DNA from: the human T2T-CHM13v2.0 reference genome, Homo sapiens
Strand: one strand, 5' to 3'
Length of the DNA: 64,000 bases
Assembly (NCBI RefSeq): GCF_009914755.1
Contig: NC_060932.1
In this document: positions 15,901-21,900 of the stretch, in pieces
How positions within the stretch are numbered: position 1 is the first letter of the stretch
Layout: every line of letters begins with the position of its first letter
Position numbers and translations under genes: made by a program
The notes under the pieces: model-generated
Told to the model about the DNA's origin: nothing
Seen by the model: the letters and a program-made list of their open reading frames with translations, nothing else
Databases searched by the model: none

Positions 15901-18900
15901 CTTGTAGCTCTGGTAGAATTCAGCTGTGAATCCATCTGATCCTGGACTCTTTTTGGTTGGTAAGCTATTGATTATTGCCACAATTTCGGAGCCTGTTATT
16001 GGTCTATTCAGAGATTCAACTTCTTCCTGGTTTAGTCTTGGGAGGGTATATGTGTTGCGGAATTTATCCATTTCTTCTAGATTTTCTAGTTTATTTGCGT
16101 AGAGGTGTTTGTAGTATTCTCTGATGGTAGTTTGTATTTCTGTGGGATCGGTGGTGATATCCCCTTTATTATTTTTTATTGCATCTATTTGATTCTTCTG
16201 TCTTTTCTTTTTTATTAGTCTTGCTAGCGGTCTATCAATTTTGTTGATCTTTTCAAAAAACCACCTCCTGGATTCATTAATTTTTTATAGGGTTTTTTGT
16301 GTTTCTATTTCCTTCAGTTCTTCTCTGATTTTAGTTATTTCTTGCCTTCTGCTAGCTTTTGAATGTGTTTGCTCTTGCTTTTCTAGTTCTTTTAATTGTG
16401 ATGTTAGGATGTCAATTTTGGATCTTTCCTGCTTTCTCTTGTGGGCATTTAGTGCTATAAATTTCCCTCTACACACTGCTTTGAATGTGTCCCAGAGATT
16501 CTGGTATGTTGCGTCTTTGTTCTCGTTGGTTTCAAAGAACATGTTTATTTCTGCCTTCATTTCGTTATGCACCCAGTAGTCATTCAGGAGCAGGTTGTTC
16601 AGTTTCCATGTAGTTGAGTGGTTTTGAGTGAGTTTCTTAATCCTGAGTTCTAGTTTGATTGCACTGTGGTCTGAGAGACAGTTTGTTATAATTTCTGTTC
16701 TTTTGCATTTGCTGAGGAATGCTTTACTTCTTAAAATCGGGACCCTTAATTTTTTTTTTCTCAGCAGAAATAACTGATTTATTCAACAAATATTTATAAA
16801 ATACTTAACTGTTGATGAGATAGTCTTACGTGTGGGACTAACAGCAATGACAGTAAGATAAATAGCCATCTCTTCATAGAACTTGTAGTTGATATTCTTG
16901 ATAAACTTTAAAATAAAGAAATTTTTATAACAAAATATGTAAATTTTTATTATTTTAATTATTGAGTTCTTACTGAAAAAAATAAGATAATACCTTTATA
17001 GTTTTATGAATTTAAATTCTGGTATTTATGAAATCATTAGAACAATAAGAAGATTAAATTAAACCAGAAAATTATTCTTAGAACATTTTCAGGAACACCT
17101 TTAGTTTTCAGATTCTTTCATTGTGAACTCATTAGTTTGCACAATTAATGAATCATCTGAACAAGTCATTTGAGAATTCTTGCCTTGATTTTATTGATGA
17201 GGAAATTGACAGAGAGAAGAACAGTGCTTTGTCCAAGGTTATCTAATGAGTTGTGTCAGACTCAAAGTCAGAATTCCTAGTTCTTGTTTCTTTCCTTATT
17301 TCAATAACACCCTAACCCCCAGGATCATCTGTAAGTGCTTGTCAACATGGTTTAATTTTATGAGATCCTAAGTCTTAAACATTAAGATGCATTTTATTAT
17401 GTAGACAAAAATAAATTAGAAATTAATTAAACAGGAAGATTTCCATTTGGAGTGGTCTATTGAACTAATCTGTGTCTTTCATTTTTAGAAATATGACTTT
17501 AAATGAATATAAAATCATATAAATATATAGTAAAATCCTTTTAAAAATTGAAATTCTATAGTTAACCTCTGCATCAGACCTTATTCTTAACTAAAAGTGT
17601 TTGCCTGTGTGGTTAACTGGAATAGAATTATAAAGGTAGAATTAATTTATTGCATTTACCAATGCTAGATGAATATACACATATAGTAAAGCAGGTAATT
17701 AAATAATTCCATGCTAAAAATTGGGATTTGGGACTATAAATTACCCAATAACTACCATAATCCTCCTTCATTTGGTATATATTGACTAAACTCAAAATTT
17801 TTAGTTAATACAAAATGGGCTGTGCTGACAATAGTAAGAAATGAAGGATTGGTTCATTTTAGAAAATCTAACTTTGTGCAACACTAGAAAGATGGCGGAG
17901 CAAGAGCAAAGAAAAAATCCCTTTGTTCCAGAAAGTCTCCTGAAAAAGAGGAAAGCTTATCAAGCCCTCGAAGCCACCCAGGCAAAGCAGGCACTTTTGG
18001 CAAAGAAGGAGCAGAGGAAAGGAAAAGGGCTCAGGTTTAAGTGACTGGAATTATTCCTACATGACTCCTGGCAGCAGAAACGTGACAAAGTACGTCTCAG
18101 ATGACCAGAAGTGAAACCTCATGCCTTAGAATTGCCAGATAAACATTCCTTGGCCTTTGTTGTACGCATCAAAAGGATTGATGGTGTGATTTTACTGGTG
18201 CAGAGAACCACTTCAAGACTTCGCCTAAAGAAAATGTTTAGTGGTGTCTTGGTAAAAGTCACCCCCCAGAACCTAAAAATGCCACGTATAGTGGAACGTT
18301 ATGTGACCTGCGGATTTCCAAATCTGAAGTCTGTCCAGTAACTCATTTTGAAATGTGGACAAGCCAAGGTCAAGAATAAGATCGTTCTTCTGACAGACAA
18401 CACAGTGATTGAGGAGCACCTGGGGAAGTTTGACATCATTTGCTTGGAAGACCTCATTCATGAAATTGCCTTCCCAGGGAATCATTTCCAGGAGATCTCA
18501 TGGTTCTTGCACCCTTTCCACCTTTCAGTGGCCCGTCACGCTACCAAAAATAGAGTGGGCTTCCTCAAGGAGATGGGCACACCTGGCTATCGGGGTGAAC
18601 GCATCAATCAGCTCATCTAGACCTAGGTGCCGAACAGCACTACATTTTTATCAATGAAGTGGAAGCATGTGTTTCCTTTTTTTGGGGGAATTTTTATCCA
18701 GAGAAGATTATTTCCTGCGTTATCTTCAAAAACTGGAAAGGAAGGGTCAAAAAAAAGACAGTACCTGGCCGGGCGTGATGGCTCATGCCTGTAATCCCAG
18801 AACTTTGGTAGTCTGAGGCAGGTGGATCTCCTGAGGTCGGGAGTTCGAGATCAGCCTGACCAACATGGAGAAACCCCGTCTCTACGAAAAATACAAAAAT

Positions 18901-21900
18901 TAGCTGGGCATGGTGGCGCATGCCTGTGATCCCAACTACTCAGGAGGCTGAGGCAGGAGAATCACTTGAACCTGGGAGGCAGATGCTGCAGTGAGCCAAG
19001 ATTGTGCCATTGCACTCCAGCCTGGGCAACAAAAGCGAAACTCCATCTCAAAAAAAGAAAAGAAAAGACAGTAGCTTATGTTCATGGCAAGCACCTCTCA
19101 TCACAGTCCAGTTCCAAGGAAAAAATTCCAGCGTTTTCTCAAGGCTACAGAAACCAAAACAGCATGGTACTGGTACCCAAACAGATATGTAGACCAATGA
19201 AACAGAACAGAGCCCTCAGAAATAACACCACACATCTACAACCAACTGATCTTTGACAAACCTGACAAAAACAAGCAATGGGGAGAGGATTCCCTATTTA
19301 ATAAATGGTGCTGGGAAAACTGGCTAGCCATATGTAGAAAGCCGAAACTGGATCCCTTCATTACACCTTATACAAAAATTAACTCAAGATGGATTAAAGA
19401 CTTAAACGTAACACCTAAAACCATAAAAACCCTAGAAGAAAACCTAGGCAATACCATTCAGGACATAAGCATGGAAAAAGACTTCATGACTAAAACACCA
19501 ATAGCAAGGGCAACAAAAGAAAAAACTGACAAATGGGATCTAATTCAGCTAAAGAGCTTCTGCACAGCAAAAGAAACTATCATCAGAGTGAACAGGCCAC
19601 CTACAGAATGGGAGAAAAGTTTTGCAATCTACCCATCTGACAAAGGGCTAATATCCAGAATCTACAAAGAACTTAAACAAATTTACAAGAAAAAAACAAC
19701 CCCATCAAAAAATGGGCAAAGGATATGAACAAACACTTCTCAAAAGAGACATTTATGCAGCCAACAAACTTATGAAAAAATGCTCATCATCACTGGTCAT
19801 CAGAGAAATGCAAATCAAAACCACAATGAGATACCACCTCCAGCCAGTTAGAATGACGATCATTAAAATGTCAGGAAACAACAGATACTGGAGAGGATGT
19901 GGAGAAATAGGAACGCTTTTACGCTGTTGGTGGGAGTGTAAATTAGTTCAACCATTGTGGAAGACAGTGTGGCGATTCCTCAAGGATCTAGAACTAGAAA
20001 TACCATTTGACCCAGCAAATCCCATTCCTGGGTATATACCCAAAGGATTATAAATCATTCTGCTATAAAGACACATGCACACGTATGTTTATTGCAGCAC
20101 TGTTCACAATAGCAAAGTCTTGGAACCAACACAAATGTCCATCAATGATAGACTGGATAAAGAAAATGTGGCACATATACACCATGGAATACTCTGCAGT
20201 CATAAAAAAGGGTGAGTTCATGTCCTTTGCAGGGACATGGATGAAACTGGAAACCATCATTCTCAGCAAAGTAACACAAGAAGAGAAAACCAAACACCTC
20301 ATGTTTTCACTCATAAGTGGGAGTTGAACAATGAGAACACATGGACATAGGGAGGGGAACATCACACATCAAGGCCTATCGGGGGTTGGGGTCCTGGGGG
20401 AGGGATAGCATTAGGAGAAATACCTAATGTAAATGATGAGTTGATGGGTGCAGCAAACCAACATGGCACATGTATACCTATATTAGAAACCTGCACGTTG
20501 TGCACATGTACCCCAGAACTTAAAGTATAATAAAATAAAAGAAAGTTTAACTTTGTTATCATGAAATCATTTTGTAAATATTATATAATACACATTACAT
20601 GTTATATATTTAATATATTTGATATATTAGTATATTGTATATGTATATAGATATAGCTGTGTATATACGTACATACTCAAATACATACAACACACAGACT
20701 AGGAAATGAAATAGGTCATGGATCAAGGAATCACCAGTTTTTAAAATCATTTTATTCACATACATATAGATGAGAAAAGTGCATACATTATACTATGAAT
20801 TTTCACAAACTGAACATACTGTGGAGATGCATTTTACCTTTAACTGAAAACATTTAATTGAGAAGTTTAAAATATATTATTAAGAGATTTCAGTATATAT
20901 TGAATGAAAAAAGTTTTAAAAGCCAAACTTGCTTTCTAATACTTTAAAAATGTTTTCCAGGTGTCTTTGATGTTATTTTCAACAAAAGAAATATATGCAT
21001 TTTCCAAAGTCATGAGATGAGGCATCTTTCTCTTGCTCTTGACAATGGCATTGTCACTGGAATGGTGTGTAGTAAATTTTCTTTTTGCCATATATCAATA
21101 GTATTATGTCTGTATATTTTTTTGTATAAGATACATTTATAAGATTACCATTTCCTTTTGGCTTGTACTAGCACTTTTTTCATTCTGTTTTGTTTCACTA
21201 ATTGTTGAGACTGTGATGCATAAATGGTTCCAAATTTCAGCAATTGGAATTTAGACAAGAAAAAGTAGACCAATTCTCTAATAACATTCAAAATTTTAAT
21301 GAGCTTTCAAAAGAAGACTGACTTCTCAATGGCCCTTTTAGGGACCATATTGTTGGAGAAAAAACAATAATTTTTTATAGTTATACCTTGTGTTGCTTAG
21401 TTTAGATTTGAAAAGTAGCATTTAATGTAATGCATACATGTTATTTATTTTTTAAAATAATACATTGTACGATAACTTTAATGCACTGTTTTAAGTGCTT
21501 AATATGTATTACAATATTTCATTCTTAAATCTACTAGATGAGATAATCCATTATTATTTGTATTTAACAGAAGAGGAACATGAAAAATAGGATTAAGTGA
21601 GTTGCACAGAGTCACAAGCTAGTAAGTGTGGAAGCAGGAATTTAATATAGGCAGTCTGACACTAACACCAGTGCTACAGCTTCCTCATATAATGCTATAC
21701 AATAATTTTTTTTTTTTTTGAGACAAGGTCTTGCTCTGTTACCCAGGCTAGAGGGCAGTTGGCATGATCAGAACTCACTGCAGCCTCGAATTCCTGGGCT
21801 CAAGCATTCTTCCTGCCTCAGCCTCCCAAAATACTGGCATTACAGGCTGATTTCAACTCATGGGATGTTATTTAACCTAAGGGAAAATAATACTTATTGA

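What the first reader, a model, noticed from the sequence alone, without database searches (positions are those of the whole stretch)
17861..20556. RPL7L1 mRNA-L1 chimeric retrocopy inserted as one event
Seen: the pseudogene has no poly(A) of its own; its 3'UTR stops at ...gcgttttctc and runs directly into L1 ORF2 (aaggctacag...). One 17-bp TSD brackets both parts: agaaaatctaactttgt (17861-17877) and agaaagtttaactttgt (20540-20556), 15/17 identical, at a tttt/agaaa endonuclease-type site. Established: U6-L1 type chimeras arise by template switching or RNA ligation during L1 retrotransposition. Inference: a rarer mRNA-L1 example with a ~1.26-kb mRNA 5' partner covering the whole CDS.
Basis: partly seen in the sequence, partly recalled or inferred. 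Interest (0 to 1): 0.7.

Follow-up and report, generated by a model that had tools for sequence, protein, structure and literature searches.

The report
Gene retrocopy fused to LINE-1
A dead, spliced copy of the RPL7L1 gene lacks its own tail and is joined directly to the last 1.4 kb of a LINE-1 element between one pair of flanking repeats; it likely arose when the LINE-1 copying enzyme switched from its own RNA to the gene's mRNA, a rare but known accident with no sign of function.

Summary
The structure is real. A spliced RPL7L1 retrocopy (17877-19139) stops 255 nt before the parent's poly(A) site and abuts a 5'-truncated L1 (19140-20539). One 17-bp TSD (15/17, chance about 2e-5) brackets both. 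The junction is unique in the genome, and both halves are equally diverged (3.5% and 3.1%). One insertion event is the best reading (about 0.7). Both donors carry CTACA at the crossover (chance about 1%), and the locus has it minus one A, which favours template switching. But the shared TSD does not prove one event. The break lies exactly on the retrocopy's best L1-endonuclease site, which was nicked independently in a sibling copy. So L1 insertion into an existing retrocopy's tail with a 255-bp deletion stays open (about 0.2). Primate orthologues were not available. mRNA/L1 chimeras are a known class. This locus is absent from the 17 in Law and Burns 2026, whose screen excluded 5' partners of 1 kb or more. 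Side result: the L1 half likely exchanged sequence with inverted neighbouring L1s by gene conversion. New member of a known kind; no function evident.

The parts
17861..17877 (+). Left target-site duplication; preceded by TTTT, bottom-strand endonuclease-type site TTCT/AA. Last base (17877) also matches the mRNA: 1-nt overlap
   Evidence: (D15)
17877..19139 (+). Spliced RPL7L1 retrocopy (RPL7L1P18): seven parent blocks joined, six introns removed including a 3'UTR intron; 5' end within the cluster where 18 of 27 siblings start; 3' end truncated 255 nt before the poly(A) site
17892..18620 (+). Dead RPL7L1 frame: stops at codons 51, 71 and 150, 12-nt deletion before the final TAG
18766..19050 (+). 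Alu inherited from the parent's 3'UTR, with its own flanking repeat (18749-18766 / 19059-19076); AluSp-like by recall, not tested
   Evidence: (D13)
19134..19144 (+). Junction TTTTCT|CAAGG. Both donors read CTACA across this point; the locus lacks the A. TTTTCT/AC is also an endonuclease-type site on the top strand
19140..20539 (+). 5'-truncated L1: end of ORF2 (broken), 3'UTR and short A-rich tail; 88-92% identical to best genomic copies; L1PA5-7 range by recall and divergence, subfamily not tested
19580..20390 (+). Tract of the L1 half sharing rare variants with the inverted neighbour L1 (likely later gene conversion)
20540..20556 (+). Right target-site duplication
8819..10880 (-). Neighbouring inverted L1; likely gene-conversion partner, not part of the insertion

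Best explanation
The locus is a tailless spliced RPL7L1 copy joined to an L1 3' end inside one target-site duplication, and it likely formed in one L1-mediated insertion by a template switch. Shown: the two halves, the shared TSD, the missing 255 nt, equal divergence, and the word CTACA in both donors at the crossover. Inferred: L1 endonuclease nicked TTCT/AA; reverse transcription began on an L1 poly(A) tail, copied about 1.4 kb, then moved onto spliced RPL7L1 mRNA where the cDNA end could pair at CTACA, one A being lost at the join or later; it ran to the mRNA's usual 5' end and was sealed with a 17-bp duplication, roughly 20-28 million years ago. The product has no promoter or intact frame and decayed. 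One event by any route: about 0.7; by template switch: about 0.5.
For: TSD at both outer boundaries, chance about 2e-5. Rare non-CpG states: L1 half 40/1298 (3.1%), mRNA half 40/1146 (3.5%), Fisher p=0.57. CTACA spans the point in 18 of 27 sibling retrocopies (19 with L011) and 33 of 38 L1 copies; overlap of 5 or more with up to one base lost arises in 1.0% of 200,000 random breakpoint pairs. Same orientation; no splice donor or acceptor at the join. 5' end falls in the siblings' start cluster. Two-RNA insertions arise de novo: nine beside 99 L1 and 235 pseudogene insertions (PMC11702581).
Against: Read strictly the join has zero overlap; the microhomology needs a 1-nt loss. The break is exactly at TTTTCT/AC, the only site of that strength in a 1530-nt sibling copy (looser classes: 0.4-1.2% of positions), and sibling L011 has an Alu inserted at this bond with a 16-nt TSD: a DNA-level nick would explain that, an RNA-level switch does not. 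The age test resolves only +/-1.4 points, about 8 million years. No orthologue was seen.
Confidence: 0.5

Rival explanations
1. One event, but the RNAs were joined first: an RPL7L1 mRNA broken after UUUUCU was ligated to an L1 fragment (RtcB-type, as for U6/L1) and the fused RNA was inserted.
For: Strict junction is blunt and the 5' partner ends U-rich; U6/L1 chimeras form by ligation, and the authors allow it for 3'-cleaved RNAs (PMC6789731 passages). TSD and ages fit equally.
Against: Leaves the CTACA overlap as a 1% coincidence; an mRNA has no standing cyclic-phosphate end.
Confidence: 0.2
2. Two steps: the retrocopy inserted first and made the TSD. Later an L1 was primed in its poly(A) tail, and the second nick fell 255+ nt upstream at TTTTCT/AC, deleting the end of the retrocopy (L1 insertion-mediated deletion).
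For: Break is exactly on the best top-strand endonuclease site, with no base loss needed; that bond was used in L011, and L010 has a deletion starting two bases from it. A-rich tails are common targets: 5 of 27 siblings lie directly after an Alu tail or linker. L1 insertion-mediated deletions are described (PMC1920257 passages).
Against: Needs two rare events at one 20-30-bp target within about 8 million years; rough recalled rates put this 10-fold or more below one-step chimeras (inference, not computed from data). None of 27 siblings has L1 joined at its junction point or tail; one has an old 73% L1 in its flank. CTACA would be coincidence.
Confidence: 0.2
3. Two steps plus a later deletion: a longer L1 inserted in the retrocopy's tail, then microhomology-mediated repair at CTACA removed the retrocopy's end and the L1's 5' part.
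For: Microhomology with a base lost is typical of end joining (established knowledge); structure and TSD would be identical.
Against: Needs three events; does not account for equal ages better than one event.
Confidence: 0.07
4. The L1 half was copied at DNA level from a neighbouring L1 during break repair of a complete retrocopy.
For: The closest of 40 scored genomic matches is the inverted L1 9 kb away, and rare variants are shared with it.
Against: Sharing is confined to 19580-20390. At 19140-19560 and 20400-20530 the L1 half differs from the neighbour, and at 19140-19560 from the second nearby L1 (L073), at lineage-marking sites, with no rare state shared at either end.
Confidence: 0.02

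Closest known systems
mRNA/LINE-1 chimeras of Law and Burns 2026 (PMC13174262, Table S5, 17 loci), especially CDC42/L1 and RPL21/L1
   Same: Sense spliced mRNA 5' of an L1, one TSD around both. CDC42: 85-nt piece, no splice donor listed, 940-nt truncated L1. RPL21: 612-nt partner, 450-nt L1.
   Different: Most of the 17 are first exons on near-full-length L1, often at splice donors. Here the partner is 1262 nt, spans the coding frame, ends inside the last exon with no tail and no splice site, and exceeds the screen's 1000-bp limit. Co-arrival in primates was shown there, not here.
U6/L1 chimeric pseudogenes
   Same: 5' cellular RNA, 5'-truncated L1, sense orientation, TSD, endonuclease site.
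   Different: U6 is full length and ligated through a cyclic phosphate; here a 3'-truncated mRNA with a likely 5-nt overlap.
De novo two-RNA insertions in L1-induced cells (PMC11702581)
   Same: Same-orientation joins ascribed to template switching or prior ligation.
   Different: Somatic and experimental; this is an old fixed germline copy.
L1 insertion-mediated deletion (Gilbert 2002, Han 2005: recalled, not held)
   Same: 5'-truncated L1 replacing adjacent DNA without a TSD of its own.
   Different: Would make the TSD the retrocopy's alone; cannot be excluded here.

Membership tests
Processed pseudogene of RPL7L1 | Introns precisely removed | tested here: met
   Seven parent blocks joined, six introns absent
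Processed pseudogene of RPL7L1 | Own poly(A) tail | tested here: not met
   Stops 255 nt short; 24 of 27 siblings have it. Not a canonical retrocopy
RNA/L1 chimeric insertion | Non-L1 RNA fused to the 5' end of an L1 3' part with tail | tested here: met
RNA/L1 chimeric insertion | One TSD of 7-20 bp around both parts | tested here: met
   17 bp, 15/17, chance about 2e-5
RNA/L1 chimeric insertion | Endonuclease-type target site | tested here: met
   TTCT/AA on bottom strand; TTCT/A named as an endonuclease motif in 10.1101/2024.08.27.596794
RNA/L1 chimeric insertion | Both parts the same age by divergence | tested here: met
   3.1% and 3.5%, +/-1.4 points; low resolution
RNA/L1 chimeric insertion | Both parts present or absent together across species | not testable with these tools
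   No other primate genome held
Splice-type mRNA/L1 chimera (5' transduction) | Partner ends at a splice donor; near-full-length L1 | tested here: not met
   Parent continues GCA, most siblings ACA, not GT; L1 is 1.4 kb
Template-switch junction | Overlap between the donors at the join | tested here: inconclusive
   5 nt if one base was lost (chance 1%), 0 nt read strictly
L1 insertion-mediated deletion | Earlier state with the deleted DNA intact in a related species | not testable with these tools
   Only indirect: break on an endonuclease site used in L011

The most novel reading that the evidence does not exclude
L1 reverse transcriptase captured nearly a whole mRNA, coding frame included, by an internal template switch at a 5-nt shared word. 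Such kilobase-size mRNA/L1 chimeras form a class that the current catalogue misses by its 1-kb cut-off, hidden among tailless pseudogenes that abut L1 3' ends.
Probability: 0.4. Interest if true: 0.5.

Novelty: new member of a known kind. Interest (0 to 1): 0.36.

Why it matters
It extends the size range of mRNA/L1 chimeras: 1262 nt against at most 612 nt among the 17 listed. It suggests a simple screen, tailless retrocopies abutting L1 inside one TSD, for events the published pipeline excludes. It also shows that a shared TSD alone does not prove one event, since a second insertion into the tail can mimic it. No function is indicated: the frame is dead. It lies in an RP1 intron by the supplied annotation; any effect on RP1 transcripts is untested.

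Tried and rejected
Trans- or cis-splicing: no donor or acceptor at the join. Alu as a later insertion here: it is in the parent and in a class of siblings. Remaining 3'UTR displaced downstream: no match in the window. Amplified chimera family: junction pattern found once; only the locus itself spans the junction among 40 scored of 1496 candidates. L1 half copied from a neighbour: ends do not match. Trees were poorly resolved (6 of 32 and 3 of 26 inner branches starred), so ages rest on rare-state counts; the L1 tree left out three short hits (L033, L034, L037), and the parent row had exon boundaries off by a base or two, which does not affect the counts used. A similarity search with 19990-20140 did not list the neighbour among 40 scored of 2752 candidates, so overall identity does not single it out; the conversion claim rests on rare variants. 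Not-in-print searches: 'RPL7L1P18' 0 papers; RPL7L1 + pseudogene + LINE-1 0 papers; RPL7L1 absent from the text and six readable supplements of Law and Burns, and no chr8 row between 50.6 and 77.0 Mb in its Alu/L1 table. One supplement (mmc7) was unreadable. Buzdin 2003, Garcia-Perez 2007, Gilbert 2005, Han 2005 and Zingler 2005 were not held; their lists could hold this locus.

Full report
Observation. A 17-mer at 17861-17877 recurs at 20540-20556 with two transitions. The left copy never exceeds 13/17 at 59,983 other window positions, and the chance of 15/17 at these boundaries is about 2e-5. It follows TTTT, so the bottom strand reads TTCT/AA.

The 5' half. 17877-19139 aligns to seven blocks of the parent gene at C6:42708641-42716384. 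Six introns are gone, including a 689-nt GT-AG intron six bases after the stop codon. The Alu at 18766-19050 is in the parent's 3'UTR, and siblings divide into copies with and without it, so this copy post-dates that Alu. Of 27 distinct siblings fetched, 24 end in a poly(A) at 42716634-42716657 and 3 run further; this copy alone stops 255 nt early, and the missing part is not in the window. Its 5' end lies in the 20-base cluster where 18 of 27 siblings start, so it probably reaches a true transcript start. The frame has stops at codons 51, 71 and 150 and a private 12-nt deletion.

The 3' half. 19140-20539 is a 5'-truncated L1, 88-92% identical to its best full-length matches among 40 scored of 20,194 candidates. 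The junction pattern occurs once in the genome.

Ages. States carried by at most 12% of relatives, outside CpG columns, number 40/1298 (3.1%) in the L1 half and 40/1146 (3.5%) in the mRNA half; difference 0.4 +/- 1.4 points, p=0.57. Other copies range 1.5-6.5% (L1) and 0.8-12.2% (RPL7L1), so the match is informative but coarse. At 0.17% per million years (rate from PMC13174262 methods), and allowing 4.75% with CpG sites, the age is roughly 20-28 million years. The labels L1PA5-7 and AluSp are recalled, not tested.

The junction. The locus reads TTTTCT|CAAGG. Siblings continue TTTTCT-ACA and L1s are preceded by CTA, so both donors carry CTACA across the point: 18 of 27 siblings (L011 too, behind its Alu) and 33 of 38 L1s. 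The present parent has G at that base. An overlap of five or more with one base lost occurs in 1.0% of random breakpoint pairs. That favours pairing of a cDNA end on the mRNA. A second coincidence points the other way. TTTTCT/AC is the only six-pyrimidine/A site in a 1530-nt sibling copy (looser classes 6 and 19 sites), sibling L011 carries an antisense Alu with a 16-nt TSD at exactly this bond, and L010 has a deletion starting two bases away. An L1 primed in the retrocopy's tail with its second nick here would leave the same structure and TSD. A-rich tails are real targets in this family: 5 of 27 siblings lie directly after an Alu tail or linker. I weigh one event at about 0.7 (switch 0.5, prior ligation 0.2) and two steps at about 0.27. 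That weighting uses recalled rates and is inference.

Neighbouring L1s. The closest scored relative of the L1 half is the inverted L1 at 8819-10880. A 36-mer holding two rare variants has 3 exact matches among 170 at up to one mismatch, all within 30 kb here: this L1, the neighbour and an L1 about 9.5 kb before the window (the motif was chosen because the first two share it). A second motif has 4 matches, 2 local. Sharing with the neighbour is confined to 19580-20390, and the neighbour's 5' part instead resembles the third L1 (16 differences in 420). Against: the pair is only tied second of 666 for shared rare states and outside the top six at the strictest threshold, and overall identity does not single it out. 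Local gene conversion is the likely cause; raised rates within 10 kb are reported for Alus (PMC6598467 passages). Neither nearby L1 matches the junction end, so they did not supply the L1 half.

What is known. Law and Burns 2026 (PMC13174262; read: abstract, sections 10, 12, 13, first part of methods, all 17 rows of Table S5 with long cells cut, chr8 rows of Table S4) list 17 mRNA or lncRNA/L1 chimeras, mostly first exons on near-full-length L1. CDC42/L1 and RPL21/L1 are the nearest in form. RPL7L1 is absent, and the screen took only 5' gaps under 1000 bp. Mendez-Dorantes 2024 (PMC11702581; section 7 and passages) saw nine two-RNA insertions de novo. Moldovan 2019 (PMC6789731), Doucet 2015 (PMC4476161), Kojima 2010 (PMC2912911), Sen 2007 (PMC1920257) and the 2024 tumour preprint (10.1101/2024.08.27.596794) were seen as passages only. 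Searches for the locus in print found nothing; several older catalogues were not held.

Verdict. A real, unique, functionless retrocopy-L1 fusion. It works like a known mRNA/L1 chimera and meets every membership feature testable here, but co-arrival across primates, the defining test, is untested. New member of a known kind, notable for partner length and an ambiguous, informative junction. Interest 0.36.

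Noticed in passing
window 8819-10880 (-), window 19580-20390 (+), L073 (C8:55046050-55047650): Three L1s within 30 kb, alternating in orientation, share rare variants found together nowhere else exactly; the middle one is a mosaic of its two neighbours. Likely serial local gene conversion.
   Followed up: partly
L042, parent C6:42715188-42715876: RPL7L1 has a GT-AG intron in its 3'UTR six bases after the stop. Most retrocopies lack it, but at least three (chr5:143.86, chr7:51.42, chr8:107.72 Mb) have about 700 extra bases there, a fossil record of intron retention.
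   Followed up: partly
L011 and L010: At the bond equivalent to window 19139, L011 has an antisense Alu with a 16-nt TSD and L010 has a deletion of about 80 bases starting two bases away: a recurrent break site in this family.
   Followed up: yes
L002-L030: RPL7L1 retrocopies split into copies with and without the 3'UTR Alu, layering the history of the parent's UTR.
   Followed up: partly
L007, L010, L016, L019, L021: 5 of 27 siblings sit directly after an Alu tail or mid-linker; L021 splits an Alu in two.
   Followed up: partly
window 17877-19139: The supplied annotation ends RPL7L1P18 at 18817, but homology to the parent runs to 19139.
   Followed up: yes
window 10880-11000 (-): The neighbour L1's 5' end abuts an LTR-like stretch (resemblance recalled, not tested) and shows no evident TSD; possibly a deletion junction.
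   Followed up: no
L051 (C23:153.1 Mb) and L052 (C4:85.5 Mb): Two unlinked L1s share 13-20 rare states, the most of 666 pairs: likely one source element or a duplication.
   Followed up: no
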